Of a DNA stretch of 57,424 nucleotides, positions 4,454-46,731 are shown one piece after another. Source of the stretch: Cyanobacteriota bacterium (GTDB taxonomy: Bacteria > Cyanobacteriota > Sericytochromatia > UBA7694 > JACMQJ01). The DNA is taken from assembly GCA_038060635.1 (NCBI GenBank), contig JBBTGK010000308.1, positions 1-57,424 on the forward strand, in the 5' to 3' direction. The notes below the pieces were generated by a model. That model was not told the origin of the DNA and searched no databases. It worked only from the letters and a program-made list of their open reading frames with translations. Numbering within the stretch: the first letter of the stretch is position 1; each line of letters starts with the position of its first letter. A program made the position numbers and the translations under genes.

Positions 4454-4467
4454 AGAGGTAAAATAAT

Positions 4468-5511: not shown

Positions 5512-5539
5512 TTATTATAAATATATTAATTATATCTTC

Positions 5540-5575
5540 GTCAGTCTGATTAAACCTAGACTGACATTTTTTTTG
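5540..5575 (+). terminator. Rho-independent terminator after the SDR gene
   Basis: An 8-bp perfect stem (GTCAGTCT 5540-5547 / AGACTGAC 5558-5565) with a 10-nt loop, followed by an 8-nt T run (5567-5574). Confidence 0.75.
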
Positions 5576-5590
5576 AATTAAAGAGAACAA

Positions 5591-7066
5591 ATGACAGAAG
5601 AAAAGAAACCTAGTTTTTTAAAATCTACCTTAATATATGGAATAGGCGGAATGTTAAATAAATTTTTATCATTTTTTCTTTTACCATTATTTACAGCTTA
5701 TCTAACACCTAAAGATTATGGAGTAACTGCAATTTTAGGAACAATGACATTTGTTCTTACCTCTATATTTACACTTGGTTTTGGAACATCAATTGGTTTA
5801 TCTTTTTTTGATACAAAAAATGAATTTAGAAAAGAAGAATCTATACATACAGCATTGATAATTCTACTTTTAAGTGCTGGTCTTATGTTTTTATTTGGAA
5901 GTATATTTTCTATAAAATTTGCGGAACATTTTTTAAATGACAAAGAACATTATAATTTTGTTATTTTATCATTAATATCTAATTTTTTTAATATAATAAT
6001 GACACCGTTAATTGTTTATTATCAATTTGAAAATAAAGCAAAAAAATATATTATCTTAACTAACTTAACATCTGTTTTAGCAATATTAACAAATGTTCTA
6101 TTTGTTGTTTATTTTAAAAGAGGAGTTCAAGGTCTTTTAGAAGCGGGTGTTATTTCTAGTTTATTAACATTTCTAATTTTTTGTATTGATGTATTTAATA
6201 ACTTAAAATTTAAGTTTAGTAAAAATGTTTCAAAAGTTTTGTTAAAGCAAGGCTTGCCAATGGTTCCATCTTTTGCAAGTTTATTTGTTATTCAACAGAG
6301 TAATAGAGTTTTTTTAGAACATTTTAATGGTTTAGAATCTTTAGGTATCTATTCTATAGGATATAATTTAGGAATGGTTATGAGTATTTTTGTAAACGCT
6401 TTTCAAAATACATGGCTTGCATTTTTTTTGTCATATATGGATAAAAAAAAGGAAGCCGAAGAAGTTTTTGGAAAAATTACAACTTATTATATTTTATCTT
6501 TGGGCTTTATAAATACAATGTTTTTTATATTCGCAGGGTCTATAGTTGCATTTATGACTAAAGATGCTTTTCATTCTTCTTATAAAATAGTTGGATTAGC
6601 AGCTACATCTCATTTTTTAAATGGTCTTTTTGCATTATTACTTCCAGCATTATATTTTGAAAAAGAAGTTAAATATGTTACTTTAATACAAATATTCGCG
6701 GCTGTATTTTCAACAATAACAAATATTTTTTTAATAATTTATTTTTCAGAATTTGGTGCAGCATTAGGTTTAGTAATAGGAACTTTTTATATTGTTTTAT
6801 TTCAATATATTTGGAATTTAATAGGAAATCCTAATTATATAAAAATAAAATATGAGTGGGGTAAAATAGCTTTATTTTCTATGTTATATTGTATTTTTTC
6901 TTCTGTAATGCTTATAAATAGAAATTTAGATAAAACAACAGAAATTATATACTCTTTTTCTTTATCAACTATTTTATTACTATTAACATTAATTCTTTTA
7001 AATAATGAAGATAAAAATAAATTAAAAGCTTTTGTTTTACAAAAGCTTAATAGATTAAAAAAATAA
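5591..7066 (+). CDS. Polysaccharide/oligosaccharide flippase (MOP superfamily, Wzx-like)
   Basis: 491-aa polytopic membrane protein with at least 12 hydrophobic segments. N-terminal 'LIYGIGGMLNKFLSFFLLPLFT' is typical of Wzx/RfbX-type flippases. It sits within sugar-nucleotide genes. Confidence 0.8.
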   Translation: MTEEKKPSFLKSTLIYGIGGMLNKFLSFFLLPLFTAYLTPKDYGVTAILGTMTFVLTSIFTLGFGTSIGLSFFDTKNEFRKEESIHTALIILLLSAGLMFLFGSIFSIKFAEHFLNDKEHYNFVILSLISNFFNIIMTPLIVYYQFENKAKKYIILTNLTSVLAILTNVLFVVYFKRGVQGLLEAGVISSLLTFLIFCIDVFNNLKFKFSKNVSKVLLKQGLPMVPSFASLFVIQQSNRVFLEHFNGLESLGIYSIGYNLGMVMSIFVNAFQNTWLAFFLSYMDKKKEAEEVFGKITTYYILSLGFINTMFFIFAGSIVAFMTKDAFHSSYKIVGLAATSHFLNGLFALLLPALYFEKEVKYVTLIQIFAAVFSTITNIFLIIYFSEFGAALGLVIGTFYIVLFQYIWNLIGNPNYIKIKYEWGKIALFSMLYCIFSSVMLINRNLDKTTEIIYSFSLSTILLLLTLILLNNEDKNKLKAFVLQKLNRLKK

Positions 7067-10956: not shown

Positions 10957-12920
10957 GAACCTGAAGCACCACCTGAAGATAAAGTTCTTTCTATAATTAC
11001 TGGACCGACAAAAGTATAATAATTATTACCATTATTTAATTTACCTGTTACAAGCATATAGTATTCTCTAGACCAATCTCTATCATCTTTTATTTTATCA
11101 TCTAATTTTAGTGTTAGATCTTTATAGTAATAGTTTTGCTCTTTTTTTATTGAACCTTGTTCCAAAATTCCTGATGTAACAAATTCTCCATCTCCATTAA
11201 CAAAACCATTCTTACTTTTAGATAAATATAAATTTACATCATTGAAGTTATTATTATCACTACCTTTTGTTTTTTTTATTCTAAATGTAGCAATATTATT
11301 TTCTATTGATTTTACAGATAGTGTTAATTTTATATCATTAGGTAATGATAAAGTTCCTGTTAAAATTGAACTACTACTTCTAGAAGCACTATATTTAGGG
11401 TTAACTGTAGTTATATTTAATATAGATAAAGCTGTATTTGAATCACTTGAAGGGTTTGAGGCTAAAAAAGTTATTTTTTTATTTAAAACTTCATTTAGTT
11501 TTAAAGGAAAACTAAATAATCCATTTTCATTTGCTAAAATATCAATAAAAGAGCCATTTTCATTTGTGAACAAATAATTTGTAGGTGAAATTCTACTATT
11601 TTTAATAGTTGCTCCTGCACAATCAGTTACTTTACCCGTAAAATAGGCTGTTTCTCCTATTGGTATATTAAAATTAAATGACTTAAACATTTTAGAAACA
11701 CCAATACTTTCTTCTGTGACTCCTTTAAAATATGTATTTATATTTCCTTCAAACTTAATTGATCCATCATAGCCACTTATTGCACAAATAATATTTGTAG
11801 GATTTTTTATTTCTAGTATTTTTATAGATATATCACCTAATTTAAATCCTAATGAAAAATCATTATCATTATTAGCTGTATTTTTACAAAAACCTGCGTT
11901 AATAAATACTGATATATCTAAATCTACACAGATTTTAGATTCAATAGCTCCTGTTTCTTTATCAAACCCTATTTCTAAAGTAAAATTTGCAAAACCAGTA
12001 TCAAGACTAGATTGAGATACAACTTCTCTTGTACTTAAATCTATAATAAAGCTTTGCTTGAAATTAGCTAAATTATTTGATATACCTATCTTATTTGATG
12101 TTATTTTATTGGTTAATGGATCTATTGTAATATCAACTAAAATTCCTTTTGTAGTTGGTAAGGATAATGATCCCAAAGAAGCTGCTATAAAAATAACTTC
12201 GTTGTTTGATTTTATTTTAATATCTTTATTAGTTTTAATAGGAAAAAACCATCCTCTTTTAGTTCCATCTACTTCTATAACTTTCCCATTAAATTTTGTA
12301 GGAGCAGGTGGACCATAATAAGTATCAGCTTTTGTTGTATAAACTTTTGAATCATTTATAGTGCTTTCAATTATAACAAGTGAATCATTGGAAGATAGTG
12401 AATTTTGTATTGTTTTTTTATAGTTAAATTTAATTTTTGATGCATCTTGTATACTATTTTTAAGGTGTGTAGATACTAATTTCCAGTTACTTTTACCTGT
12501 TTTTGTATAAATAGAATAAAAAAATGATTTATCTGAGGTTAAATCTATTTCATAACTTGAATTATTTTTAAGATTAGAAATATAAAAAGCTCTTCTGCCT
12601 TCTATTTCTATCATAGAACTTTGTAAATCTTTTCCATTTGCCTTAGTATTAAATGAATTTAGATTTATTTTATTGAAAGTATTTTCTATTTTTTCATTTA
12701 TCTTATCTATTTTATCGGTTTTATCATCATAAACTTGTATATATTGAAAGTTTGTTTTAAAGTTATTATTTTTATTTTCTTTTGATTCTAAAATATCTTT
12801 ATTATTAGTTTTTATTGTGTTTAATTTATCTATTGGGGTACAAGAAAAAAGAAAAAAAAGTATTCCAGTAAAAATAACTAATATTTTAGTATATATATTT
12901 ATATTCTTAAGATATAACAT
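10950..12920 (-). CDS. Lipoprotein of unknown function with a CarboxypepD_reg-like module and a shared C-terminal domain
   Basis: Lipobox 'FFLFSC'. 'GKVTDCAGATIKNSRISPTNYLFTNENGSFIDI' resembles a carboxypeptidase-regulatory-like beta-sandwich. The C-terminal 'EYYMLVTGKLNNGNNYYTFVGPVII' parallels the C-terminus of the 14705-16468 product. Confidence 0.75.
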   Translation of the reverse strand: MLYLKNINIYTKILVIFTGILFFLFSCTPIDKLNTIKTNNKDILESKENKNNNFKTNFQYIQVYDDKTDKIDKINEKIENTFNKINLNSFNTKANGKDLQSSMIEIEGRRAFYISNLKNNSSYEIDLTSDKSFFYSIYTKTGKSNWKLVSTHLKNSIQDASKIKFNYKKTIQNSLSSNDSLVIIESTINDSKVYTTKADTYYGPPAPTKFNGKVIEVDGTKRGWFFPIKTNKDIKIKSNNEVIFIAASLGSLSLPTTKGILVDITIDPLTNKITSNKIGISNNLANFKQSFIIDLSTREVVSQSSLDTGFANFTLEIGFDKETGAIESKICVDLDISVFINAGFCKNTANNDNDFSLGFKLGDISIKILEIKNPTNIICAISGYDGSIKFEGNINTYFKGVTEESIGVSKMFKSFNFNIPIGETAYFTGKVTDCAGATIKNSRISPTNYLFTNENGSFIDILANENGLFSFPLKLNEVLNKKITFLASNPSSDSNTALSILNITTVNPKYSASRSSSSILTGTLSLPNDIKLTLSVKSIENNIATFRIKKTKGSDNNNFNDVNLYLSKSKNGFVNGDGEFVTSGILEQGSIKKEQNYYYKDLTLKLDDKIKDDRDWSREYYMLVTGKLNNGNNYYTFVGPVIIERTLSSGGASGSW

Positions 12921-12934
12921 TAAAATTACCTTTT

Positions 12935-14683
12935 TTATTGAATATCAAATATTTTAAAAGCTGATGTATATGTTTCATATCCATTTTGAGCACTATTACT
13001 TTTTTTCCAAACTACCATAATACTATTATCATCACCTGTTATAATAGGTGATGATATATTATAGTCTTGTGGTTTATCTATTTCTATTGCGTTTCCAACG
13101 GCTTGACCAAGTCTATTATATGCTTTTACATATATACCACGCTCAATTTTTTTGTATATATTACTAGCTCCATAAAAATAAGTATTTTTATCTGGATAAT
13201 AATTTGTTTTCATATATACAAGTATAAAAGAACCATCTCCTCTAACATGTATTTGTGGTTCTGATTCAAAAGATTCAAAACCTGTATTTAAAGAATTATC
13301 ATTTACAGATTCAAGGTCTCTTGGATTACCATTAGAATCATACATTCTAAATCTTATTTCTGAGTAATTATTCCATGCTAAAATAAAATTATTACTTGAA
13401 TCTAAACCAATAGATGGTCTATCTCCAGAACTTCCCATTGTATATTTTCCTACATTTTCACCATTTGGATTAAATTTTTCAACTACTAAAGAACTACTTG
13501 CATTTCTACTACATGTAAAAAAACTACTATCAGAACCCATTGCTATATTTTGGTTACTTGGTGGACTATATAATGATGTTCCTATATATGAACCTTTAGG
13601 CTTTTCTTCTATATACATTTGTACTCCAAGTGTTGCAATAATAAAATCTCCATCACTATTTTTATTAGAAACAATTCTAAAGGAATTATTATCAATAAAC
13701 ATACTACTTTCTGTAATACGTAATTTTGATATTTCATTTAGATTATTATCAAATATTTTTGCTATTGCTTTTAAGGTATAACTTCCATCATTTATATTTC
13801 CTTCCCCTTCGTTATATCCTAGTATGAATCTATTTTTGTACACAGCTAATTTTGGATTAAAGCTATTATATGAGGTTGATAATGTTATTTTTTGAGATAT
13901 TGCAACTCCATTTTTATCTATAATCATTGCATATAATTTATGTTGAATATATTGATTTGTATTTGGATCACGTCCTGAATTATCCTGATCATCTGCCCAA
14001 ATCATAATATAATTACCATTACTAAGCTTGGCTCCTACAGAAGGAGCCTTTCCAGTTCCATAATTACCATATACTTCGGTTTGCCCAAAAGCTTTTAAAT
14101 TAAGAGCATAAGTACTAGGATATTGGGTAATATCCACAGGTACTATTTTTCTAGGCTTAAAAATAGGTTCTATCGGTATAGTTCCAATATTAGCAATATC
14201 TTGTAAAAACATATCTATTTTTACCGAAGAAATATCAGGTGAAACTGCAAACTCTTCAGAACTACCTCTTGATAAAACCTTACCATTTGCATCTTCTAAA
14301 AACAATAAAACCTTAATTAAATCACCCATATTTGAATCAATTTTAAAAGATATCGGCTGTGATGTATTAACTGATAATTTTCTCTCAAAACTTTTACCAA
14401 GTCTCATAACCCTAATTCTTAAAAAAGCATTAGTCGGAAGCCCTATATCTGGTACGGCTTTAGTATTAAAATCGTTGATATTAATAGAATCATTTTTTTT
14501 ACCCAAATCAGACGGTTTTAAAGAAATAACAACAGAACCTTTATTTTTTATATCTGGAAGACTTATAGTAGTATTACCATCAATATTAGCAACTTCTTGA
14601 AAAGTAAAATTATTAGATGAACATGAAACTATAAAACTTACTACTAAAATTGCAGATATTCTCTTAATTAAAACGTTTAGCAT
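12935..14683 (-). CDS. Lipoprotein with propeller-type repeats (paralogous to the repeats in 7072-10956)
   Basis: Lipobox 'FIVSCSSNNF'. Repeat units include 'KAPSVGAKLSNGNYIMIWADDQDNSG', 'DRPSIGLDSSNNFILAWNNYSEIRFRMYDSNGN', 'SEPQIHVRGDGSFILVY' and 'SSPIITGDDNSIMVVWKK'. Confidence 0.75.
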   Translation of the reverse strand: MLNVLIKRISAILVVSFIVSCSSNNFTFQEVANIDGNTTISLPDIKNKGSVVISLKPSDLGKKNDSININDFNTKAVPDIGLPTNAFLRIRVMRLGKSFERKLSVNTSQPISFKIDSNMGDLIKVLLFLEDANGKVLSRGSSEEFAVSPDISSVKIDMFLQDIANIGTIPIEPIFKPRKIVPVDITQYPSTYALNLKAFGQTEVYGNYGTGKAPSVGAKLSNGNYIMIWADDQDNSGRDPNTNQYIQHKLYAMIIDKNGVAISQKITLSTSYNSFNPKLAVYKNRFILGYNEGEGNINDGSYTLKAIAKIFDNNLNEISKLRITESSMFIDNNSFRIVSNKNSDGDFIIATLGVQMYIEEKPKGSYIGTSLYSPPSNQNIAMGSDSSFFTCSRNASSSLVVEKFNPNGENVGKYTMGSSGDRPSIGLDSSNNFILAWNNYSEIRFRMYDSNGNPRDLESVNDNSLNTGFESFESEPQIHVRGDGSFILVYMKTNYYPDKNTYFYGASNIYKKIERGIYVKAYNRLGQAVGNAIEIDKPQDYNISSPIITGDDNSIMVVWKKSNSAQNGYETYTSAFKIFDIQ

Positions 14684-14704
14684 TTCATATTTTCCTTTTT
14701 AATA

Positions 14705-16468
14705 CTAATTTTTTCTAACTGTAATTGGGCCAATCCAATACCAATAAGCTTGGCTTCCTGTTGCATAAATTTCTATTCTTATATAATAATCCTTAGTATT
14801 TTGAGTCCACTCTTTGGTAGAAAGATCTACGCTAAAGGTTTTTGTTTTTTCCCATGAAGTTTGAGAAATACCTTTTATTTCATCTGAAAGTGCAGAAGTA
14901 TTTTCATGCCCACCAACTCTCAAAGATCCTTTTCCTGGTTGTAAAAAACCACCATCTATTTTTGAAACATCTATTGTAAGAATAGTTCCACTTATCACAC
15001 CTGTTATTTTTAAAGGAGATGTATTAAAAGAACTTGCTCCTGTAGTACTAGAAGTATTTAAAAGGGAGTAAGATGTAGCTACAAAACCATTTCTTATAGT
15101 AATATTTCTTGTAAGCGTTTGACTAATTCTTCCATCTCTATCAACTGATTTCATTGATATAGTTTTTATTCCTGCTGTTGAATATCTATGAAAAAGATCT
15201 TGCTCACCACCACCAAGATAATATAATGTTGGTTGAATAGGAGAACCATCACCCCAATCTAAATCAACTTTTACATCTTTATATGGTCTGCTATCACTAG
15301 TAAATTGAAGTAAAAATCTACCATTTTCATTTTTATCAAGTTCTTCAGGACAAGAAATACAAACTGGAGCAGATGGTGCAACCTCAAATGGGGTTATATT
15401 AATTTCTCTAATAATTCTAGAACTTTCTTTGCCAGAATCATCAAAAGTAGAAAATAAGATATTTCTTGTTCCAACAGAGCTATAAGCATGAGAAATATTT
15501 ATATCTCCTTGAGATAAAACATAATCACTAAAAGAATTTGAACTATCTCCCCAATCAATTTTTAACCTAATATTATCTGCTGGTAATCCTAAATCTTTTA
15601 TTCTTACAGACCAATTATTTGTAATTCCAACATTACCTGTAGCAGGGCAAGAAAGACATTCAGGCATTTCGGGTTCTATATTTATGTTGTTATTAGATTC
15701 AACAGGAATATCTTCATTTAAATCGTATAAAGAATTTATATGCTTTTCTACCAGTGTCAAAAATTGAATATTTTCTTGCTCATTTATAACTACATTTGTA
15801 TCTGGTATTGCTCCTGTAGAATCTGGTGTAACAATATGATCAGTTACGGTTGGTTTTTCATAAATTTCTGCTGGAATAGAATAAACAGGATTAGGAGTCG
15901 TTGTTAATATTGGAGTTGGTACTGGAGTAGCTTTTGTTATTTTAGATGAAATAGGAACATCAAAAAACTGTTTATCTGTACCCTCATAGATATTTACAAC
16001 ATTATCTTCATATTCATTTAAAAAATTTACTTCTATTGCATTAGAAACAGGAACTTCTTGTGTATTATTAGGATTTATTTGAAATAAATTTAAATGAGTT
16101 TCTATATTCTGATTAATTAACACAAGATCTGTAGAACCAATAAAAGTTGTTGTTCCATCAATATTTTTCTGAAAAACTTCTATATTTATAGCTTGATCAG
16201 TTTCAGCTTTTATTCTAAATGTATTTTTATTTAAAGAAATTTTTTCTGTTATTGTATGATAATAAATACCATTTTTTTTTGTCTGAATTAAAATCTTAGC
16301 GTTTTCTTTAATATCTGGTAATTTTATATCTGCATAAAATATTTTACTAGAAGGATTTATTTTAGGTAAATTTAGTACATTTTTACTTTCAATTTCTTTC
16401 AATGCAAAATTATTGCTAGAACAAGCATAAAAAGACAAAGATAAAAGCAAAAAAAGTAAAAAACGCAT
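14705..16468 (-). CDS. Lipoprotein with a Pro/Thr linker, two PKD-like domains and a shared C-terminal domain
   Basis: Lipobox 'LSFYACSSNNF'. The linker is 'TKATPVPTPILTTTPNPV'. The PKD signatures are 'KIDWGDSS...HAYSSVGTRNI' and 'DLDWGDGS...HRYSTAGIKTI', each preceded by C-[LI]-S-C-P. The C-terminus is 'DYYIRIEIYATGSQAYWYWIGPITV'. Confidence 0.8.
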   Translation of the reverse strand: MRFLLFLLLSLSFYACSSNNFALKEIESKNVLNLPKINPSSKIFYADIKLPDIKENAKILIQTKKNGIYYHTITEKISLNKNTFRIKAETDQAINIEVFQKNIDGTTTFIGSTDLVLINQNIETHLNLFQINPNNTQEVPVSNAIEVNFLNEYEDNVVNIYEGTDKQFFDVPISSKITKATPVPTPILTTTPNPVYSIPAEIYEKPTVTDHIVTPDSTGAIPDTNVVINEQENIQFLTLVEKHINSLYDLNEDIPVESNNNINIEPEMPECLSCPATGNVGITNNWSVRIKDLGLPADNIRLKIDWGDSSNSFSDYVLSQGDINISHAYSSVGTRNILFSTFDDSGKESSRIIREINITPFEVAPSAPVCISCPEELDKNENGRFLLQFTSDSRPYKDVKVDLDWGDGSPIQPTLYYLGGGEQDLFHRYSTAGIKTISMKSVDRDGRISQTLTRNITIRNGFVATSYSLLNTSSTTGASSFNTSPLKITGVISGTILTIDVSKIDGGFLQPGKGSLRVGGHENTSALSDEIKGISQTSWEKTKTFSVDLSTKEWTQNTKDYYIRIEIYATGSQAYWYWIGPITVRKN

Positions 16469-38937: not shown

Positions 38938-39369
38938 ATGGAAAAAAAAATGTCTGAATCAAATAAAGTAAAAGTAGTTGAATACGATCTTTGGGACAGT
39001 GAAACAGGTGAAGCTGATATTGTTATTGAGTTTGAAAATGGAAAAAAAATCAAAGCTTTTACTATAGATAGTTTTCATGATATTGATGATGTTGTTGATG
39101 TAAATCTTTCTCTTTTTTGTAAATCTTTTGAAATTGCAGATAATTTTACTTCAGAAATTTTAAATTTAAACGATAAATATGAAGCAAGAGTACAAGGCAA
39201 AATAATAAAATATATTAATGACGAAGAAAAAGGCGAATATATTGTTGTTGATGCAGGTAATATTTTTGTATCTATTTTTGATGATTTTTCAGAACAAAAA
39301 AATATTGAGTCATCTTATTTTAAAGGACAAGGACGACTTGATGTAGAAATTGTTGGTGAAGAGTGGTAA
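38938..39369 (+). CDS. Acidic hypothetical protein
   Basis: 143-aa ORF, the first gene of a co-directional signalling cluster. No motif recognised. Confidence 0.55.
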   Translation: MEKKMSESNKVKVVEYDLWDSETGEADIVIEFENGKKIKAFTIDSFHDIDDVVDVNLSLFCKSFEIADNFTSEILNLNDKYEARVQGKIIKYINDEEKGEYIVVDAGNIFVSIFDDFSEQKNIESSYFKGQGRLDVEIVGEEW

Positions 39370-39427
39370 AATTTGTTATCATGTTATATGGAAACAATAA
39401 ATTTAAATAATTTGGAAAAATAAATTT

Positions 39428-39862
39428 ATGAGTGAAGCATTGTTTGAGCAAGAAATAGAGTTAAACGTTCCTATGATACAAGACATAGAAACCGTTGTAA
39501 TGAATACTGCTCGTTCGGTTGCAAAGTTTTCTGATTTTGATGATGATCAAATTGATGAGATGAATCAAGCTCTTATAGAAGCCTGTATTAATGCCATAGA
39601 GCATAGCAAAAGCGAAGATAGAAAATTATACATAAAGTTTATTGTAAATAAAAACGAAATTACAGTTATATTCAGAGATAACGGAAAAGGCTTTGAAATA
39701 GCTAATGTTAATGAAAATCCTGATATAAAAGAAAAATTAAAATCTGACTATAAAAGAGGTTGGGGAATTAAACTTATAAAAACTTTAATGGATAAAGTAG
39801 AAATAGAAAGTGGAAACACAGGTACAATATTAAAAATGACAAAAGTAAAGCAGGAGTTATAA
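39428..39862 (+). CDS. Anti-sigma-factor-type serine kinase (RsbW/SpoIIAB-like HATPase_c)
   Basis: N-box 'EACINAIEHS', G1 'RDNGKGF' and G2 'GWGIKLIKTLMD'. 144 aa, the typical size. Confidence 0.8.
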   Translation: MSEALFEQEIELNVPMIQDIETVVMNTARSVAKFSDFDDDQIDEMNQALIEACINAIEHSKSEDRKLYIKFIVNKNEITVIFRDNGKGFEIANVNENPDIKEKLKSDYKRGWGIKLIKTLMDKVEIESGNTGTILKMTKVKQEL

Positions 39863-39864
39863 TC

Positions 39865-40215
39865 GTGGCAGATGGGTTTGATGTAAAGATAGACAAAAGA
39901 AGTGATTTTGCAATATTAAGAACTGATGGATATGTAAATAATCTTGGGGGAGAAAAAATAGGCGAAGCTGCTGATTCTCTTATGAAAGAAGGGATTATAA
40001 ACCTTATTATAAACTTTGAAAAATCTACTGTAGTTAACAGTATTGGTATATCAATTCTTATTGAAGTTATAGAAAAACTTGTTGATAATGGTGGAAAAAT
40101 TATTTTTTCAAATCTTACAAAAACAATAGCAAAAACTTTTAATATAATGGGTTTAACTCAATTTGCTGAAATATGTGAAACAGAAGCAGATGCTGTTGCT
40201 TCAATATCTGGATAG
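39865..40215 (+). CDS. STAS-domain anti-sigma-factor antagonist (RsbV/SpoIIAA-like)
   Basis: 116 aa. 'INFEKSTVVNSIGISILIEV' has the conserved phospho-acceptor Ser context. The GTG start lies 2 nt after the kinase stop. Confidence 0.8.
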   Translation: MADGFDVKIDKRSDFAILRTDGYVNNLGGEKIGEAADSLMKEGIINLIINFEKSTVVNSIGISILIEVIEKLVDNGGKIIFSNLTKTIAKTFNIMGLTQFAEICETEADAVASISG

Positions 40216-40235
40216 GTAGAGGTTTTTAAAAAAAA

Positions 40236-40736
40236 ATGTTCGGCGGAAATAAAGACCCTGATAAAAAAGGTGTTGAACAACCAAAAAAAATACCTTCTCC
40301 ACCCCAATTTGGAGCTAAACCAATTATAGGTTCTCCTTCTGGTGCAAATAAACCTGTTCCACAAGTACCTGTAAATAAACCAGGAATGGATAATTTTCAA
40401 AGAACAAATAAAGCTCAAAGAGGTATTACGGCTCCATTGAGTTCGTCTAATTCTAATCTTAATCTTACTTCAGAAAACAGAGAATTCACTGAAACTAAAT
40501 TTGATGATGGAATCGTTATACTTAAATATAAAGAGCCTCAAAAAATAGATAATCTTATTCATGATGCGAAAACAAGAGTTGGTGGAGAAAATTCTAAGTT
40601 TTTTAGTAAGGGATGGGTTATTGGAAAGGATATTGCAAAAATATCTCCTGATGGAACTTCAATTACTTTTTATCCTAAAGAAGTTTCGGAACTCGTTCAA
40701 GAGTTAATAGGATACCCAAGTGCAGATGATAATTAA
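40236..40736 (+). CDS. Hypothetical protein with a Pro-rich N-terminal half
   Basis: 166-aa ORF. 'PKKIPSPPQFGAKPIIGSPSGANKPVPQVPVNKPG' is followed by a small globular C-terminus. Confidence 0.55.
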   Translation: MFGGNKDPDKKGVEQPKKIPSPPQFGAKPIIGSPSGANKPVPQVPVNKPGMDNFQRTNKAQRGITAPLSSSNSNLNLTSENREFTETKFDDGIVILKYKEPQKIDNLIHDAKTRVGGENSKFFSKGWVIGKDIAKISPDGTSITFYPKEVSELVQELIGYPSADDN

Positions 40737-40766
40737 TATTGGTAAAAAAGATAGAGCAATTATATC

Positions 40767-42350
40767 GTGAATCATATAATAAACGAGTTTAATAAAATAG
40801 ATGTTGATAAGCTTATATATAATATAAACTCGCTTAATGATGTTTCAATGGAAATTATATCTGATAGCAGTTTAGATGTATCACTTTCTAACCTTCTAAG
40901 GATATTAATGGGAACATTAGGCGTTACTAAAGGAACTATTTTAACTTATGCACCTTTTAAATTAGCTTTTGAATCAGCTGTTGTAAAAGGCTTTGAAGGA
41001 AATCTTTATTTTAGAGCTTTACCAAAAGAAGTTCCTGATATAACAAATTCAAAAGGTGTTTTTACTCTTGAAGAATTAGAAAAAAAGTTTCCTGATTTTG
41101 TAAAAAGAAATAAGCCTATGTTTGAAAAACATATTGCAGCTTCTATGTGGGTTACTTTAGGAATAAGAGGAAGATTAGTTGGAGCTATTTTATTAGGACA
41201 AAAACTTAATAAATTACCTTATGAACAAACTGATATTCTTTTACTTTCAATAATATCTAATCAAATAGCCATTGCTATTTCAAATTTTCAGTTAATTGAT
41301 GAATTGAAAAAAACAAATGATAAATTAAGAAAACAAAATTTTGAACTTGTTGATGCAAATTATGGAATATCTGAAATGAGACAAATAAGTGTAGAATTAA
41401 GTGAAATAATAGATGTTCAAAGTTTATTAGAAACATTTTTAATGAAATCAATTCAATATCTTTCTTGTAGTAAAGCTGTTTTATTTCAATTGGAAGGTGA
41501 TAGTCTTAGAGTTCAGTCTTCTTCAAAAATAATGAATATAAAAAATGATAAGGTTTTTAAAGTTGAAAATGCACCTGAAATGATAAAAAAGCTATTAGAA
41601 ACTGGAGATCCTCAAAGAGGTGATGTTTCTAAGTTTTTTGATATTGATGCAAAACATACAATATGTGTACCACTTAAGTCTGAAAGAGATATATTAGGTG
41701 TAATTTGTCTTTTTGATAAAGAAAGTAAAGTAGAAAAAGAAAATCCTAATCCTTTTACTCCTTTTACAGAGCGAGATGAATCTATGATAACATCTCTTAC
41801 AAATCATACCGCTACATTATGGCAAAAAGCTAAGTTTTATGAAATGGCAACTGTTGATGGACTTACTCAACTTTATGTAAGAAGATTTTTTGAGCAAAGA
41901 ATTGGCGAAGAATTAAGAAAAGCTCAAAGACTTGATAGAAAGTTATCTTTGATGTTTATAGATATTGATCATTTCAAAAAATTTAATGATACTTGGGGAC
42001 ATCAAACAGGTGATGATGTTCTGAGAGTTGTTGCTAAAAAAATAAAAGATAGTGTTAGAAAAGGAATTGATATTGCCGCTAGATATGGTGGTGAAGAGCT
42101 TACTGTTATTATGCCTGAAACAGATGCGAATGGTGCAGTTATTTTAGCTGAAAGAATCCGTTTAAGTATAGAAAAAGCAAATTTAGATAATCCTAATGGT
42201 GGAGAACCATTAAAAGTAACTATTAGTATTGGGGTTTCAACTTTTCCAGATCATGCTGTTAATGTTCAGGATTTGGTGGAAAAAGCTGATATTGCCGTTT
42301 ATAAATCAAAAGCTAATGGTAGAAATAGAGCTACTCTTTATGGTACATAG
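40767..42350 (+). CDS. GAF-GAF-GGDEF diguanylate cyclase-like protein
   Basis: C-terminal 'DGLTQLYVRRFF...DIDHFKKFNDTWGHQTGDDVL...RYGGEELTVIM...GRNR'. The two N-terminal modules of about 150 aa are GAF-like ('MWVTLGIRGRLVGAILLG', 'ICVPLKSERDILGVICLF'). GTG start. Confidence 0.85.
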   Translation: MNHIINEFNKIDVDKLIYNINSLNDVSMEIISDSSLDVSLSNLLRILMGTLGVTKGTILTYAPFKLAFESAVVKGFEGNLYFRALPKEVPDITNSKGVFTLEELEKKFPDFVKRNKPMFEKHIAASMWVTLGIRGRLVGAILLGQKLNKLPYEQTDILLLSIISNQIAIAISNFQLIDELKKTNDKLRKQNFELVDANYGISEMRQISVELSEIIDVQSLLETFLMKSIQYLSCSKAVLFQLEGDSLRVQSSSKIMNIKNDKVFKVENAPEMIKKLLETGDPQRGDVSKFFDIDAKHTICVPLKSERDILGVICLFDKESKVEKENPNPFTPFTERDESMITSLTNHTATLWQKAKFYEMATVDGLTQLYVRRFFEQRIGEELRKAQRLDRKLSLMFIDIDHFKKFNDTWGHQTGDDVLRVVAKKIKDSVRKGIDIAARYGGEELTVIMPETDANGAVILAERIRLSIEKANLDNPNGGEPLKVTISIGVSTFPDHAVNVQDLVEKADIAVYKSKANGRNRATLYGT

Positions 42351-42393
42351 TTGAAATTAAATCGTATTATTTTTGTTATTATTTAGGTATTTT

Positions 42394-43158
42394 ATGAAAA
42401 ATATTTTTCAATTATCTTTACATAAGAAGTTTTTAACTATAGTTTCTACTATTTTACTTCTTTCTTTATCAAATATTGCTCCATCTTATTCTCAAGATAA
42501 TTTTCCTATAAGCTTTCCTGCTGAAATAAAAGAAAAAAATATGGGTGTTAGTTTATTTTATTCTGATAATTTTACCTTAGATAATAAAATTTCTGCTCCT
42601 GAACTTAGAGCAGAAATAAAAGCTAATTTTTTAGAAAATGGTAACGGTGTAATAAGTGAAATATCTTTTCAAAATATGTTTGGTACAAATCCTGCCATAA
42701 TTTCTGGATTAGTTCCCAAAGGAGATGCTTATAGTCAAGATGTAAGTGGTTTAATTGGTTACAGATTTTCTTTTTTTAATACCATATCAATTGCTCCGTT
42801 TGTAAAAGGAAGAGGCTTTGTTACTAGAGGTAGAGGAGGAGATAATATTTATGGAACCGAATTAGGCTCAGAATTAGAATGGAAAATATACCCTGAAAGT
42901 ACTTTTGTTAATATAAAATATGGTTTGTTTTTACCTTTTTTACATAAATATACTGGAGAAGCAGATAAAATAGGTGCTTATAGTTTTTTATTAAATAATT
43001 TAGAATTAAAATTAAGATATAGATTTTTACCAGATTTTGAAGTTATGACAGGTTATCATCTCAGAGAAATTCCAAAACAATTAGGTACTAGTAATTTTTC
43101 AACCAAAGATACCTTTTTTTGGGGTGGGGTTTTATTAGGAATTGCTTACGTTTTTTAA
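42394..43158 (+). CDS. Putative outer-membrane beta-barrel protein
   Basis: Signal peptide 'ILLLSLSNIAPSYSQ', alternating hydrophobic strands, and a C-terminal 'LLGIAYVF' aromatic beta-signal. The ORF track starts at TTG 42373, but ATG 42394 (MKNIFQ) is more plausible. Confidence 0.6.
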   Translation: MKNIFQLSLHKKFLTIVSTILLLSLSNIAPSYSQDNFPISFPAEIKEKNMGVSLFYSDNFTLDNKISAPELRAEIKANFLENGNGVISEISFQNMFGTNPAIISGLVPKGDAYSQDVSGLIGYRFSFFNTISIAPFVKGRGFVTRGRGGDNIYGTELGSELEWKIYPESTFVNIKYGLFLPFLHKYTGEADKIGAYSFLLNNLELKLRYRFLPDFEVMTGYHLREIPKQLGTSNFSTKDTFFWGGVLLGIAYVF

Positions 43159-43260: not shown

Positions 43261-45954
43261 ATGGCAGAGTTAAGGACTGTAGAAAGATCTCTTGATGTCG
43301 GAATGCTATCCGTTTCAGGTTCTATTTTGTCATTGCCAGATGATTACATCGTAATTCCTCACTTATTATACAACTCCCGAAAATTTTTAGACTATGTAGT
43401 TACTGTTGTTGGCCCAAATGGTTTTTTTCTTGTTTCATACCAACCTTTTTTTGATAACGATTTTAAAAATGAAAATATAGAAGATTCTATAATTTACCTT
43501 CGAGAATATACAATAAAATTAGCTGACTATATAAAAATGAGGAACATAAAATTAGATTCTTCTCCTAAATTAATAATTGCTGTTGATGATAAACATTTTA
43601 CAGATATACAAGGTGAAGAAGATGACGTAATGATTGTTCCATTAAATAAAATAAAAACACTTATTACATCTATTTCAAAAAAAGATCTTTATTCTAAATC
43701 TAAAGTAAATGAAATTATTTTTTCAATAAGAGCTAACGGCATTTTAAAAAGAGTAAATCAATACCAAATATTAAATGAAATAGAAATATCAGAAACATAT
43801 TGCACATATATGGCTTATGATACTATAACAGATAGAACTGTTTTAATAAAAGAAGTTAAAAATTATACTGATTCTTCAAAAATTGAAGATTTAGAAAAAA
43901 ACGAAGTTTTACGAGAAGCTAAATTGACAATGCAATTAAAACACGAAAATATAGTAAATATAGAGCAAATAATACCTAGAGATAACTCTTTGTACATAAT
44001 AATAGAATGGATAGAAGGAGCCAAAAATATTAGACAAATAATAAATTCTAATAAATATGGTTTTGGAATAGAAACAACAAAAGTAATTATTAATCAAATA
44101 TGTTCCGCTCTTGAGCATTGTCATTCAAAAGGAATTGTTCATAGAAATATTCGCCCAGAAAATATTTTAATAACAGATGATTATTTAATAAAAATAACCA
44201 ATTTTGAATTGGCAAAAAAATCTGACATTCATACTAGAAATACATTTGATCTTAAACAAATGATGAAAGAGAATCCTTATGCTGCACCAGAATTTAGATT
44301 AAACACACATAATATTGACCAAAGAGTAGATATTTATTCTGTAGGTGTTATTTTATATGAATTATTAACAAATAGACTTCCTTATCATTTAGATGAAAGA
44401 TATTGGGAGCCACCAAGTAAATATAATGTAGAACTAAATTCTATTTGGGATAAAATATGTCTAAAAGCATTAAGATTTGATCAACATCAACGTTTTGGAA
44501 CTATTTCAGCCCTTAGAGAAAAAATAAATAATGCTGGAAATCCAATTGATGAACTTTCTACAGAAAAAAGATATTCATCAAGAGAGATTTATAAAAGAAC
44601 TAGAAATAGTATTATTTATCGAGCGTATGATAATAAAAATCAAAGAGAAGTTGCTCTTAAAAAAGTTCTATTTGATAAATTATTTACTTCTGAGCAAAGA
44701 AAACAAAAAATGCACAAGCTTCTTTCTGAAGCAAAGCTTGTAAGTAAATTAGCCCATGAAAATATTGTTACGGTTTACGATTTTTTTATAGAAGATGGTG
44801 ATGGTTATATCGTAATGGAATGGCTTAATGGAAAAACATTAAGAGAATATAAAAATGATATTATTGATTTTTCTGTAGAAGATGTAATAAACATAGGGAT
44901 ACAGATAGCTAAAGCACTTGATTATGCACACAGACAAAATATCATGCATAAAGATATAAAACCAGAAAATATAATGTTTTTTGAAGGAAAAATAACTATA
45001 TTAGATTTTGGACTAGCTAGTTTTTTAGAAACTAAAAATACTGATAAATCTTATGGAACACTTATGTATATGGCTCCTGAACAGCTAAAAGGTGCAAATA
45101 TTCTTGATCAAAGGGGTGATATTTTTTCTTTAGGAATATTGATGTATGAATTAATATATAATGGTGAATATCCTTATACCCCAGATATTATCATGAGTGG
45201 TTATATAGAAAATGTTGATCCATTATTACCAAGCAAAAGAAATATTAATATTCCAATAATGCTTGATTTATCAATAAAAAAATCAATAAAAATAAACCCT
45301 GATGAACGATACCAAAAAATAAATGATCTTATTGCAGATCTTGAAAATATAATTTATAAAAAAGAAGTCAAAGTAAAAAATGAGTTTTTTGAAAAAATAA
45401 AATCGATTGTTACTATTCCCAAGTTAGTAATGTTTTTTATGATTATTTCTTTAATATTTTTTTCTAGTATAAAAATGCTTCAAATGGAAAAAAAAGAAAT
45501 TCTTGAAATAGAAGATATAAATATAACTGTTCCTGCAATTCCTATTAGTTTCTCTTTTGATAGAAAAGCAATAAATTCTTATGATTGGATTTCTGATCGT
45601 TCAAGAAGAGATGATGCTTTAATTCAAATAAAAATAAAATCAAATTATACTTTAAAACAAAGTTTATTTACTATTATCATAAAAAATAGCTCAAATGATA
45701 GTATAAACTTTTTTAATATAAATAATCCAGAAAAAAATATAATTATAAAAGACAATTTAGGAAATAATTATTCTTCAAAAATTCTTTTGAATACAGTTTC
45801 ACAAGAGCTTTTAAAAATAAAACCTAGTTCAGAATCAGAAGGATCTTTTATATTAGATACATTAGCATCTGAAAAAGCAAGTAAAATAGATGTAAGATTA
45901 ATGGAAAATAATGGAAAAAGAAGAAGTTTTTTTGTTACGTTAGATAAACAATAA
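43261..45954 (+). CDS. NERD-like domain + pseudokinase + Hanks-type Ser/Thr kinase + TM + extracytoplasmic domain
   Basis: N-terminal 'LDYVVTVVGPNGFFLVS' is NERD-like. Kinase-1 has 'VHRNIRPENIL' (44140-44148 HRN) and 'NFE' (44200-44208) in place of HRD/DFG. Kinase-2 has 'MHKDIKPENIM' (44947-44955), 'DFG' (45004-45012) and 'YMAPE'. The TM is 'IPKLVMFFMIISLIFFSSI'. Confidence 0.85.
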   Translation: MAELRTVERSLDVGMLSVSGSILSLPDDYIVIPHLLYNSRKFLDYVVTVVGPNGFFLVSYQPFFDNDFKNENIEDSIIYLREYTIKLADYIKMRNIKLDSSPKLIIAVDDKHFTDIQGEEDDVMIVPLNKIKTLITSISKKDLYSKSKVNEIIFSIRANGILKRVNQYQILNEIEISETYCTYMAYDTITDRTVLIKEVKNYTDSSKIEDLEKNEVLREAKLTMQLKHENIVNIEQIIPRDNSLYIIIEWIEGAKNIRQIINSNKYGFGIETTKVIINQICSALEHCHSKGIVHRNIRPENILITDDYLIKITNFELAKKSDIHTRNTFDLKQMMKENPYAAPEFRLNTHNIDQRVDIYSVGVILYELLTNRLPYHLDERYWEPPSKYNVELNSIWDKICLKALRFDQHQRFGTISALREKINNAGNPIDELSTEKRYSSREIYKRTRNSIIYRAYDNKNQREVALKKVLFDKLFTSEQRKQKMHKLLSEAKLVSKLAHENIVTVYDFFIEDGDGYIVMEWLNGKTLREYKNDIIDFSVEDVINIGIQIAKALDYAHRQNIMHKDIKPENIMFFEGKITILDFGLASFLETKNTDKSYGTLMYMAPEQLKGANILDQRGDIFSLGILMYELIYNGEYPYTPDIIMSGYIENVDPLLPSKRNINIPIMLDLSIKKSIKINPDERYQKINDLIADLENIIYKKEVKVKNEFFEKIKSIVTIPKLVMFFMIISLIFFSSIKMLQMEKKEILEIEDINITVPAIPISFSFDRKAINSYDWISDRSRRDDALIQIKIKSNYTLKQSLFTIIIKNSSNDSINFFNINNPEKNIIIKDNLGNNYSSKILLNTVSQELLKIKPSSESEGSFILDTLASEKASKIDVRLMENNGKRRSFFVTLDKQ

Positions 45955-46030: not shown

Positions 46031-46657
46031 ATGAAAAATTTTACAAAATATTTGCCTGTTTTATTCACATGTTTTATTTTAACATCTTGTGCGTCAGTTA
46101 ATGATTCTAATGCCACCTTGCAAAATACAGATTCTCAAATATTATCATCTGATAATAATCTAACTTATGTTGTTACAGCAAGAGCAATAGTTGATAGAAT
46201 GCCTAAAACTACAAATGTTTCTGATCAAGATAAACTTGTTAAAGATTTTACCGAACAAATAAAAAATTTAAACCGCCCAGCTCTTGAAGGTTTACTAAAA
46301 TATTCGGTAAAAGTTTTACAAGAAACAACACCTGCTGGACAAGATTTACTTAAAATGCCTGTAGTAAAACTTATTCATGCTACTCAAAGTAGATATTTAG
46401 ATGTTCTTACTAACAGTGCTTTTATGAGAAAATCTGATGATATTTTTAGTATTGCAATTATGAAAAACCCAGTTGAACAAGAAAAAGCTGTTCAAAAATT
46501 TGAAAAAACAAGTTTTAAAAGTGTTCCTAAAACTGACTTAAAATTATTAATTCAATATATAAAAGGTGAATTAGGTAATTTTGGAGACTTTTTAGATCCT
46601 AAATCGTCTATTTCTAAAAGATTAGTTAAAACGTTAGAATTAGCCCTAAACGCATAA
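46031..46657 (+). CDS. Lipoprotein of unknown function
   Basis: Signal peptide plus lipobox 'FILTSCAS'. 208 aa, the last gene before a strong terminator. Confidence 0.65.
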   Translation: MKNFTKYLPVLFTCFILTSCASVNDSNATLQNTDSQILSSDNNLTYVVTARAIVDRMPKTTNVSDQDKLVKDFTEQIKNLNRPALEGLLKYSVKVLQETTPAGQDLLKMPVVKLIHATQSRYLDVLTNSAFMRKSDDIFSIAIMKNPVEQEKAVQKFEKTSFKSVPKTDLKLLIQYIKGELGNFGDFLDPKSSISKRLVKTLELALNA

Positions 46658-46691
46658 TATTTTATTTATTATAAAAAAAATTTTATAACTA

Positions 46692-46731
46692 AAGCTATAC
46701 ATAGTATTTTGTGTATAGCTTTTTTGTTTTT
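46692..46731 (+). terminator. Rho-independent terminator
   Basis: Stem AAGCTATACA (46692-46701) / TGTATAGCTT (46712-46721) with a 10-nt loop, followed by TTTTTGTTTTTT. Confidence 0.8.

What the first reader, a model, noticed from the sequence alone, without database searches (positions are those of the whole stretch)
43261..45954. Membrane protein combining a NERD-like domain, a pseudokinase and a kinase in tandem (JAK-like arrangement) with an extracytoplasmic tail
The architecture, read from motifs, has five parts. (1) The N-terminal ~100 aa are NERD-like ('DDYIVIPHLL..FLDYVVTVVGPNGFFLVS'). (2) Kinase-like domain 1 retains the VAIK-type Lys and an APE-like motif, but its catalytic loop is HRN (not HRD), DFG is replaced by NFE, and it has no Gly-rich loop, so it is predicted to be inactive. 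(3) Kinase domain 2 has HKD-x4-N, DFG and APE intact, again without a canonical Gly-rich loop. (4) One TM segment follows. (5) The last ~190 aa lie outside the membrane. Tandem pseudokinase-kinase proteins are well known in eukaryotes (JAKs) but are rarely described in bacteria, and I do not know of a characterised fusion to a NERD domain. It sits at the end of the partner-switch/GGDEF cluster.
Basis: partly seen in the sequence, partly recalled or inferred. Interest (0 to 1): 0.65.

Follow-up and report, generated by a model that had tools for sequence, protein, structure and literature searches.

The report
Membrane NERD–pseudokinase–kinase receptor protein

Summary
The N-terminus is a NERD-superfamily domain, found only by profile methods, and all three nuclease catalytic residues are lost. 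KD1 is a true kinase fold with HRN and NFE and is degraded in all 50 relatives examined. KD2 keeps every catalytic residue in 50 of 50 but has an invariant KRTRNS in place of the Gly-rich loop. One TM helix and a confidently modelled periplasmic Ig-like beta-sandwich follow.

The novelty claim does not hold as written. NERD + inactive pseudokinase + active kinase is the published N-terminal architecture of PglW (type 2 BREX/Pgl, autokinase shown) and of a subset of DndF proteins. A family member aligns collinearly to the PglW and MAD6 models. This protein is not PglW: it scores far below the cut-off, lacks PglW's C-terminal half and has no defence neighbours.

"JAK-like" holds only for domain order, since the predicted 3D arrangement does not match. 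The link to the partner-switch/GGDEF cluster is not conserved.

New here: the family is confined to about 26 Sericytochromatia-type genomes. In about 16 of 27 loci the gene lies directly after uvrB, but not in the window's clade. Most likely it is a receptor Ser/Thr kinase. Interest is moderate.

The parts
43261..45954 (+). Whole gene, 897 aa plus TAA stop
   Evidence: 100% identical database entry P0001 and about 65 full-length homologues
43261..43740 (+). N-terminal NERD-superfamily domain (aa 1-160), catalytically degenerate. The NERD D/E/K positions are V46 (43396-43398) and S59-Y60-Q61 (43435-43443), and about 16 aa of the following hairpin are deleted.
   Evidence: hhalign 98.7%, E 1.9e-16 against stand-alone NERD proteins; 27/50 relatives hit PF08378; alignment; alpha-beta-beta-beta-alpha-beta secondary structure in the AF2 model; no direct Pfam hit
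43756..44550 (+). KD1, pseudokinase domain (aa 166-430): K197 (43849-43851), HRN (44140-44148), NFE in place of DFG (44200-44208), APE (44284-44292), no Gly-rich loop
   Evidence: Pkinase E 1.4e-40; family statistics (DFG Asp is Asn in 41/50, no member has K/D/D); as conserved as KD2
44572..45360 (+). KD2, predicted active Hanks-type kinase domain (aa 438-700): atypical P-loop KRTRNS (44593-44610), K467 (44659-44661), E490 (44728-44730), HKDIKPEN (44947-44970), DFG (45004-45012), APE (45073-45081)
   Evidence: Pkinase E 1.3e-46; K, E, D, K, N and DFG invariant in 50/50; best structural matches are PknB, TM 0.85
45415..45483 (+). Single transmembrane helix (aa 719-741), preceded by a Lys-rich segment
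   Evidence: hydropathy peak in 50/50 relatives; helix 719-741 in the AF2 model
45484..45585 (+). Low-confidence linker (aa 742-775); Pro/Ser/Thr-rich and longer in high-GC relatives
   Evidence: pLDDT <50 over aa 742-764; sequences
45586..45951 (+). Extracytoplasmic (periplasmic) Ig-like beta-sandwich domain (aa 776-897), with invariant W776, N809 and D831
   Evidence: AF2 pLDDT 93.9, pTM 0.85, all-beta; only generic beta-sandwich PDB matches, best E 3e-3, TM about 0.5; weak DUF5643/DUF4352/DUF4232 hits in relatives; no homologues outside the family

Best explanation
The gene encodes a single-pass, N-in/C-out receptor-type Ser/Thr kinase of a lineage-specific Sericytochromatia family. Its cytoplasmic part is the same three-domain module (NERD, then pseudokinase, then kinase) that is known from PglW, MAD6 and DndF.

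Shown here:
- The domain order, folds and motif states.
- The NERD domain of this protein has lost all three nuclease catalytic residues.
- KD1 is degraded at the Mg-binding and catalytic Asp positions, yet is as conserved as KD2.
- KD2 keeps the full catalytic set.
- There is one TM helix and a folded beta-sandwich outside the membrane.

Inferred:
- The periplasmic beta-sandwich detects an envelope or external cue.
- The signal is passed through the TM helix, probably by dimerisation, as in other single-pass bacterial STKs.
- KD2 phosphorylates itself and/or substrates.
- KD1 acts as an allosteric regulator or scaffold. Its nearly invariant activation segment (A318, K319, T325 in 50/50) is a candidate docking or phospho-acceptor surface.
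- The dead NERD domain serves as a binding or regulatory module rather than a nuclease.

In the window genome the protein works as a stand-alone chromosomal signalling gene, not as part of a defence system or of the neighbouring partner-switch/GGDEF genes.
For: - Two Pkinase domains.
- Motif statistics over 50 relatives.
- NERD homology with loss of the catalytic triad.
- TM helix in 50/50.
- AF2 models: pLDDT 81.9 for the full length and 93.9 for the C-terminus.
- KD2's best structural matches are PknB-type receptor kinases.
- KD1 conservation is 53.6% against 51.2% for KD2.
- Collinear match of the module to the PglW and MAD6 models, and the published description of that module.
- No PADLOC hits on the neighbours, and only kinase-fold hits on the protein itself.
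- The window carries housekeeping genes of a diderm: LptF/G, MlaD and others.
- Neighbours are not conserved among orthologues.
- The family is restricted to about 26 Sericytochromatia-type species genomes with a graded identity series, which fits vertical inheritance.
Against: - No biochemical data exist for any family member.
- KD2 lacks the canonical GxGxxG loop (KRTRNS instead), so ATP binding and catalysis are unproven.
- The ligand of the beta-sandwich is unknown and the fold has no specific structural relative.
- Inter-domain packing could not be inspected, because no coordinates or PAE were available.
- The closest known relatives of the cytoplasmic module are all defence proteins.
- In most of the family the gene is coupled to uvrB, which points to a DNA-related role that a pure envelope-sensor model does not explain.
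Confidence: 0.6

Rival explanations
1. DNA-damage or repair-linked signalling. The family is functionally tied to nucleotide excision repair. The kinase is co-expressed with UvrB, and the NERD domain binds DNA or a repair intermediate. The window protein keeps this role even though it has moved away from uvrB.
For: uvrB lies directly upstream on the same strand in about 16 of 27 species-level loci. Gaps range from -8 to +62 nt, with an 8-nt overlap in four loci. Every other genuine neighbour cluster occurs in 7 or fewer loci. NERD belongs to the PD-(D/E)xK nuclease clan.
Against: None of the 7 loci in the window's clade has uvrB adjacent, and the 57-kb window has no uvrB at all. This clade has also lost the D/E/K triad (V/S/Q). 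Only 3 of 50 members keep D-E-K. NERD-less variants are still next to uvrB, so the linkage does not depend on NERD. Adjacency could be an inherited gene order without a functional meaning.
Confidence: 0.2
2. Defence-type sensor or effector. Like PglW, MAD6 or DndF, the protein senses phage attack (here at the envelope) and triggers a NERD-dependent or phosphorylation-dependent abortive response.
For: The NERD-pseudokinase-kinase module is otherwise known only from defence proteins. The NCBIfam MAD6 and PglW models give partial matches. The C-terminal and NERD domains evolve fast (31-34% mean identity), as sensor modules of defence proteins often do.
Against: The nuclease triad is lost in the window protein and in most of the family. 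No pglX/Y/Z, brx, mad or dnd genes are found nearby in the window or in five homologous loci. Scores are far below the model cut-offs (119 vs 990 bits; 254 vs 460 bits). Synteny is stable in related genomes rather than a variable island. The distribution looks vertical and lineage-restricted.
Confidence: 0.1
3. Fully non-catalytic scaffold. Both kinase domains are pseudokinases because the Gly-rich loop is missing, and the protein acts only as a membrane-anchored adaptor.
For: Neither domain has GxGxxG. Some relatives (type P0126) have also lost HRD and DFG in KD2. Membrane-anchored bacterial pseudokinases such as EssB/YukC and MviN are known (PMC12599244).
Against: K467, E490, D565, K567, N570, D582-F583-G584 and APE are invariant in 50/50 members, which is hard to explain without catalysis. 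The replacement loop KRTRNS is itself nearly invariant and forms the beta1-beta2 hairpin in the model. PglW, which has the same module, autophosphorylates.
Confidence: 0.1

Closest known systems
PglW, the Ser/Thr kinase of the Streptomyces Pgl / type 2 BREX system (NCBIfam NF033442)
   Same: Same order of N-terminal NERD, inactive pseudokinase and active Hanks kinase (PMC4365076; PMC12839542). Family member P0025 aligns in a single stretch, residues 48-721, to model positions 48-764. The window's KD1 maps to the first kinase region of the model (202-427) and KD2 to the second (549-662).
   Different: PglW is 1400-1600 aa, cytoplasmic, and continues with an RNAP-alpha-CTD-like domain, three wHTH domains and an inactive STAND ATPase. 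It is encoded with pglX/Y/Z. Here the module is followed by a TM helix and a periplasmic beta-sandwich. There are no BREX genes nearby, the score is 119 bits against a cut-off of 990, and the NERD triad is lost.
MAD6, the kinase of the methylation-associated defence system (NCBIfam NF047741)
   Same: NERD plus kinase. P0025 residues 1-463 align end to end with model positions 1-470 of 612 (352 bits). The window protein scores 254 bits.
   Different: MAD6 has one kinase domain and is a defence-system component. Scores are below the cut-off of 460. No mad genes are nearby. The window's own N-terminus does not hit the model.
The subset of DndF proteins (DndFGH) with NERD + inactive + active kinase
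   Same: PMC12839542 reports an 'identical tripartite arrangement'.
   Different: DndF continues with a P-loop nucleotide-kinase-like core and a sensory alpha+beta domain and is a defence protein. It was not compared by sequence here.
PknB/Stk1-type single-pass receptor Ser/Thr kinases
   Same: KD2's best structural matches (TM 0.85, about 30% identity) and the highest NCBIfam score. Same topology: cytoplasmic kinase, one TM helix, extracytoplasmic sensor.
   Different: PknB has one kinase domain with a canonical Gly-rich loop and PASTA repeats outside the membrane. It has no NERD domain and no pseudokinase.
Janus kinases (JH2 pseudokinase followed by JH1 kinase)
   Same: A pseudokinase lies immediately N-terminal to an active kinase in one polypeptide. 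Full-length JAK1 is the top collinear Foldseek hit.
   Different: TM 0.25 and rmsd 21-26 A, so the relative orientation is not shared. There is no FERM-SH2. JAKs are not membrane-spanning. The two arrangements have independent origins: both of this protein's kinase domains are bacterial Hanks-type and 33% identical to each other.
SmdA of Staphylococcus aureus (a membrane-anchored NERD protein in cell division)
   Same: A precedent for a membrane-tethered, cytoplasmic NERD domain that lacks several conserved NERD residues and has a role outside defence (PMC9040797).
   Different: It has no kinase domains, its TM helix is N-terminal, and it comes from an unrelated lineage.

Membership tests
Hanks-type protein kinase (Pfam PF00069), KD2 | Kinase fold above the gathering score | tested here: met
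   159.6 bits, E 1.3e-46 for aa 431-719 alone; PknB TM 0.85
Hanks-type protein kinase (Pfam PF00069), KD2 | Catalytic residues: beta3 Lys, alphaC Glu, HRD Asp, catalytic-loop Asn, DFG Asp | tested here: met
   K467, E490, D565, N570 and D582 are present and invariant in 50/50 relatives
Hanks-type protein kinase (Pfam PF00069), KD2 | Gly-rich GxGxxG nucleotide-binding loop | tested here: not met
   Replaced by KRTRNS (aa 445-450); T447 and S450 are invariant in the family
Hanks-type protein kinase (Pfam PF00069), KD2 | Phosphotransfer activity | not testable with these tools
   Needs an autophosphorylation assay
Pseudokinase (sequence definition: kinase fold lacking at least one of the beta3 Lys, HRD Asp or DFG Asp), KD1 | Kinase fold | tested here: met
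   Pkinase 139.8 bits, E 1.4e-40; pLDDT mostly 80-96 over aa 166-430
Pseudokinase (sequence definition: kinase fold lacking at least one of the beta3 Lys, HRD Asp or DFG Asp), KD1 | Loss of catalytic Asp residues | tested here: met
   HRN and NFE in the window. In the family the DFG Asp is Asn in 41/50, the HRD Asp is Asn in 30/50, and no member has K/D/D
NERD (Pfam PF08378, PD-(D/E)xK clan) | Match of this protein to the Pfam model at the gathering score | tested here: not met
   No hit at E<=10 for aa 1-167
NERD (Pfam PF08378, PD-(D/E)xK clan) | Homology to NERD proteins by profile comparison | tested here: met
   Subclade profile against 132 stand-alone NERD proteins: 98.7%, E 1.9e-16, 140 columns. 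27/50 relatives hit PF08378. The family profile retrieves Pfam-confirmed NERD proteins
NERD (Pfam PF08378, PD-(D/E)xK clan) | Catalytic D...ExK triad | tested here: not met
   V46, S59 and Q61, with the Lys position falling in a deletion. Family counts: VSQ 19, DER 18, DAH 5, DEK 3
PglW (type 2 BREX kinase, NF033442) | Domain order NERD, pseudokinase, kinase | tested here: met
PglW (type 2 BREX kinase, NF033442) | Score at or above the curated cut-off (990 bits) | tested here: not met
   119.4 bits for the window protein; 184 bits for P0025
PglW (type 2 BREX kinase, NF033442) | C-terminal DNA-binding (wHTH) and inactive STAND half | tested here: not met
   After KD2 the protein has only a TM helix plus a 122-aa beta-sandwich. 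The model match stops at about position 764 of 1391
PglW (type 2 BREX kinase, NF033442) | Encoded with pglX, pglY/brxC and pglZ | tested here: not met
   No such genes among the ORFs scanned in the window or in the homologous loci
MAD6 (NF047741) | Score at or above the curated cut-off (460 bits) | tested here: not met
   254 bits for the window protein; 352 bits for P0025
JAK-type pseudokinase-kinase unit | Pseudokinase immediately N-terminal to the kinase | tested here: met
   KD1 aa 166-430, KD2 aa 438-700
JAK-type pseudokinase-kinase unit | Shared spatial arrangement of JH2 and JH1; FERM-SH2 receptor-binding module | tested here: not met
   JAK1 hits have TM 0.25 and rmsd 21-26 A. No FERM or SH2 in the Pfam scan. 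The predicted packing itself could not be inspected
Partner-switch (RsbW/STAS) + GGDEF gene cluster | Conserved adjacency or co-occurrence with the kinase gene | tested here: not met
   The cluster is present upstream in the window but absent next to the 73% orthologue and the other relatives

The most novel reading that the evidence does not exclude
The family could be an undescribed envelope-to-genome signalling device. It would be a receptor kinase whose periplasmic beta-sandwich senses an external or envelope cue, and whose NERD-pseudokinase-kinase module was inherited in an operon with uvrB and couples that cue to DNA repair or nucleoid transactions. The pseudokinase would regulate the kinase allosterically, as a bacterial analogue of JAK JH2-JH1 control. 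The window protein would then be a derived form that lost both the nuclease triad and the uvrB linkage and was rewired to another output.
Probability: 0.15. Interest if true: 0.7.

Novelty: new variant of a known kind. Interest (0 to 1): 0.45.

Why it matters
The NERD-pseudokinase-kinase module has so far been discussed only as part of large cytoplasmic phage-defence proteins (PglW, DndF, MAD6), and its role there is still unclear. Here the same module sits in a compact receptor format: one TM helix and a small periplasmic domain. It is conserved in a whole bacterial class, lies outside defence islands, and carries a dead nuclease domain. That gives a simpler system for asking what the pseudokinase and NERD domains contribute to kinase control.

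It also provides a clean bacterial case of a strongly conserved pseudokinase fused to its partner kinase. The repeated uvrB-kinase operon arrangement in most of the family is a testable lead towards Ser/Thr phosphorylation control of, or by, nucleotide excision repair in the non-photosynthetic relatives of Cyanobacteria.

Tried and rejected
- Direct Pfam and NCBIfam scans of the N-terminus gave no hit, so the NERD call had to be made through the family and by profile-profile comparison.
- The search for homologous proteins with the N-terminal profile and the C-terminal profile returned only two fragments of the same family each. The word pre-filter is saturated or insensitive for these AT-rich or divergent domains.
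- PADLOC hits (PD-T4-6, mad6, MkoA) all fall on the generic kinase fold and were not taken as evidence of defence.
- The Foldseek search of the C-terminal model found only generic beta-sandwiches (adaptin appendage, BsuPI, NPC2, SOD, arrestin), so no functional inference was drawn.
- The genome scan did not retrieve real PglW or MAD6 loci. The Actinomycetota hits were PASTA-type PknB kinases and an unrelated caspase-like tandem-kinase protein. The comparison with PglW and MAD6 therefore rests on NCBIfam profiles and the literature, not on a pairwise alignment.
- Kwon et al. 2019 (PMC6997932) could not be read.
- The 2025 review of bacterial pseudokinase families does not mention PglW, NERD or tandem arrangements.
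- Promoter-like sites are at chance level (39 against 35.8 +/- 7), so no promoter was assigned.
- I considered that KD1 and KD2 arose by a recent internal duplication. They are 33% identical, which is no closer than KD2 is to unrelated bacterial kinases, so this is left open.
Full report
**Observation.** The window contains an uninterrupted ORF at 43261..45954 on the + strand (ATG to TAA, 897 aa). The region has about 25% G+C. An identical protein and about 65 full-length homologues exist in public data, mostly from Candidatus Sericytochromatia MAGs. Identity runs in a graded series from 73% down to about 27% at 99-100% coverage. After that, hits cover only a single kinase domain.

**Kinase domains.** Pfam finds two separate Pkinase domains. 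KD1 (about aa 166-430) scores E 1.4e-40 and KD2 (about aa 438-700) scores E 1.3e-46 when scanned alone.

I aligned 50 full-length relatives (A1) and counted residues at the key positions.
- KD2 has the beta3 Lys (K467), alphaC Glu (E490), HxD (D565), K567, N570, DFG (582-584) and APE invariant in 50/50.
- KD1 has HR[N30/D19], [N41]F[G/D/K/E] in place of DFG, and a variable beta3 position (K23/R12/Q9). No member has the full K/D/D set.
- Neither domain has a GxGxxG loop. In KD2 the loop is replaced by KRTRNS (T447 and S450 invariant), which still forms the beta1-beta2 hairpin in the model.

KD1 is as conserved as KD2 (53.6% against 51.2% mean pairwise identity). Its activation segment, AKK.D..TRSTFDLRQM..ENPYAAPE, is nearly invariant, with A318, K319 and T325 in 50/50. 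So KD1 is a selected, functional pseudokinase and not a decaying duplicate. KD1 and KD2 are 33% identical to each other.

**N-terminal domain.** The window's N-terminus does not hit NERD in Pfam even at E<=10. Three results still place it in the NERD superfamily.
- 27 of the 50 relatives hit PF08378 (best E 5.1e-15).
- The family N-terminal profile, searched exhaustively against 1.84 billion representatives, recovers the family first (about 17 representatives). It then recovers more than 1000 small proteins, and those tested are Pfam-confirmed NERD proteins.
- As a stricter test, a profile made only from the window's own degenerate subclade aligns to 132 independent stand-alone NERD proteins with 98.7% probability, E 1.9e-16, over 140 columns.

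That alignment, together, puts the NERD catalytic D, E and K opposite V46, S59 and a deletion/Q61. About 16 residues of the following hairpin are also missing. Across the family the triad is VSQ in 19, DER in 18, DAH in 5 and DEK in only 3. The domain is therefore NERD by descent but a dead nuclease in this protein and in most relatives. The AF2 model shows the alpha-beta-beta-beta-alpha-beta pattern expected for a PD-(D/E)xK core.

**Membrane and outside part.** A single hydrophobic segment occurs in 50/50 relatives. In the model it is a helix at aa 719-741, preceded by a Lys-rich stretch. This implies a cytoplasmic N-terminus and an extracytoplasmic C-terminus. The window encodes LptF/G and MlaD, so the organism is a diderm and the C-terminus is periplasmic.

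After a low-confidence linker, aa 776-897 fold as a seven-stranded beta-sandwich (separate model: pLDDT 93.9, pTM 0.85). Foldseek finds only generic Ig-like sandwiches (best E 3e-3, TM about 0.5). A few relatives give weak hits to DUF5643, DUF4352 and DUF4232. A profile search found no homologues outside the family. The ligand is unknown.

**Comparison with known systems.** PglW of the Streptomyces coelicolor Pgl system (type 2 BREX) is described with NERD (aa 12-130), an atypical kinase domain without a predicted ATP site (195-490) and a Hanks Ser/Thr kinase (537-704/816). Autokinase activity was shown, and the invariant lysine K677 was targeted by mutagenesis (PMC4365076).

[quoted passage not shown] It reports an identical tripartite arrangement in a subset of DndF proteins and detects PglW in 1035 taxa (PMC12839542).

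The relationship is visible in sequence. Family member P0025 aligns in one stretch, 48-721, to positions 48-764 of the NCBIfam PglW model, and 1-463 to positions 1-470 of the MAD6 model. The window's KD1 and KD2 map to the first and second kinase regions of the PglW model respectively.

The protein is nevertheless not a PglW or a MAD6.
- Scores are far below the curated cut-offs (119 vs 990 bits; 254 vs 460 bits).
- PglW's C-terminal wHTH/iSTAND half is absent.
- No BREX, MADS or Dnd genes are nearby.

The PADLOC matches are all to the generic kinase fold.

**JAK analogy.** Foldseek's two best hits for the full-length model are full-length JAK1, with 765-783 aligned columns. TM is only 0.25/0.21 and rmsd is 21-26 A, while single PknB domains reach TM 0.85. 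So the analogy holds for the order pseudokinase-then-kinase, not for the geometry. There is no FERM-SH2. I could not inspect the predicted inter-domain packing, because only pLDDT and pTM (0.64) were returned.

**Genomic context.** Upstream in the window are an RsbW-like kinase, a STAS protein, a GAF-GGDEF cyclase and an unannotated 261-aa ORF. Downstream are a 208-aa putative lipoprotein, an OmpR/HK pair and MlaD. None of these is conserved next to relatives, including the 73%-identical orthologue. The partner-switch/GGDEF association is therefore positional only. The only terminator-like hairpin on the + strand (46691-46722) follows the downstream lipoprotein ORF, so those two genes may be co-transcribed.

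**Distribution and the uvrB linkage.** A scan of one genome per species (185,579 species) with a KD1-specific profile found the family in 26 genomes. Almost all are labelled Sericytochromatia or basal "Cyanobacteria bacterium". Identity then drops sharply to unrelated kinases.

Clustering all flanking ORFs of these loci showed one recurrent neighbour, uvrB. It lies directly upstream on the same strand in about 16 of 27 loci, with gaps of -8 to +62 nt and an 8-nt overlap in four. Every other genuine neighbour cluster occurs in 7 or fewer loci.
- All loci that keep a D-E-K/R or D-A-H triad and have upstream sequence available show the linkage.
- So do the NERD-less variants (about 770 aa) and the variants without the beta-sandwich (about 760 aa).
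- None of the 7 loci of the window's V/S/Q clade shows it, and the window has no uvrB.

This suggests an ancestral uvrB-kinase operon that the window's lineage has lost, along with the nuclease triad.

**Interpretation.** The best-supported reading (0.6) is a receptor-type Ser/Thr kinase. A periplasmic beta-sandwich sensor connects through one TM helix to a catalytic KD2. The conserved pseudokinase KD1 regulates KD2 or scaffolds its substrates. The dead NERD domain acts as a binding or regulatory module.

The domain anatomy is shown; the signalling steps are inferred. Rivals are:
- a DNA-repair-linked role inherited from the uvrB operon (0.2);
- a PglW-like defence role (0.1);
- a fully non-catalytic scaffold (0.1).

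S. aureus SmdA is a precedent for a membrane-tethered, degenerate NERD domain with a role outside defence (PMC9040797).

**Verdict.** The cytoplasmic module is already known and partly characterised. The receptor format, the lineage restriction, the dead nuclease and the uvrB linkage are new. This is a new variant of a known kind, and interest is 0.45.

Noticed in passing
Loci L011, L013-L020, L022-L026, L028, L031 (for example L018 uvrB 3567-5477, kinase gene from 5470): In about 16 of 27 species-level loci of this family, uvrB lies directly upstream on the same strand. The gap is -8 to +62 nt, and four loci have an 8-nt overlap. No other genuine neighbour recurs in more than 7 loci. The window's own clade lacks the linkage, and the window has no uvrB.
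   Followed up: partly
Proteins P0126, P0127 (loci L023, L026) and loci L022, L024, L025: The family has architectural variants. One form of about 760 aa has the TM helix but almost no extracytoplasmic tail, and in P0126 KD2 has also lost HRD and DFG. Another form of about 770 aa appears to lack the NERD domain but keeps the beta-sandwich.
   Followed up: partly
Protein P0132 (470 aa): A NERD domain with an intact ExK motif (EVKDWHG) is fused to a single KD1-like kinase domain (HRDIRPEN, LNFDSAK) and also starts with MAELR. This suggests that NERD plus the 'NF' kinase is an older unit shared with MAD6-type proteins.
   Followed up: no
window 46031..46657 (+) and 46691..46722 (+): A 208-aa ORF with a lipoprotein-like signal (…FILTSCAS…) and no Pfam or PADLOC hit starts 77 nt after the kinase gene. 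It is followed by the only + strand terminator-like hairpin in the region, so it may be co-transcribed with the kinase. It is not found next to the 73% orthologue.
   Followed up: partly
window 42373..43158 (+): A 261-aa ORF lies directly upstream. It has an N-terminal hydrophobic segment, a C-terminal aromatic residue (…IAYVF) and no family hit. It may be an outer-membrane beta-barrel protein.
   Followed up: no
window 38938..42350 (+): A co-directional set of ORFs: an unannotated 143-aa ORF, an RsbW-like HATPase_c_2 kinase, a STAS protein, an unannotated 166-aa ORF and a GAF-GAF-GGDEF cyclase. It looks like a partner-switching module coupled to c-di-GMP synthesis. It is not linked to the kinase gene in other genomes.
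   Followed up: partly
window 7072..16468 (-): Four consecutive large ORFs of 1293, 655, 581 and 586 aa. Only the first has Pfam hits (BACON_2 and PPC domains), and the other three have none at E<=1e-5. This may be a cell-surface or secreted protein cluster.
   Followed up: no
Locus L036 (Streptomyces sp. NPDC079141), ORF 3979..6753: An unrelated bacterial tandem-kinase protein: a caspase-like N-terminal region followed by two Hanks kinase domains. The first carries 'MNFG' in place of DFG. Tandem kinase arrangements in bacteria are therefore not limited to the NERD-linked module.
   Followed up: no
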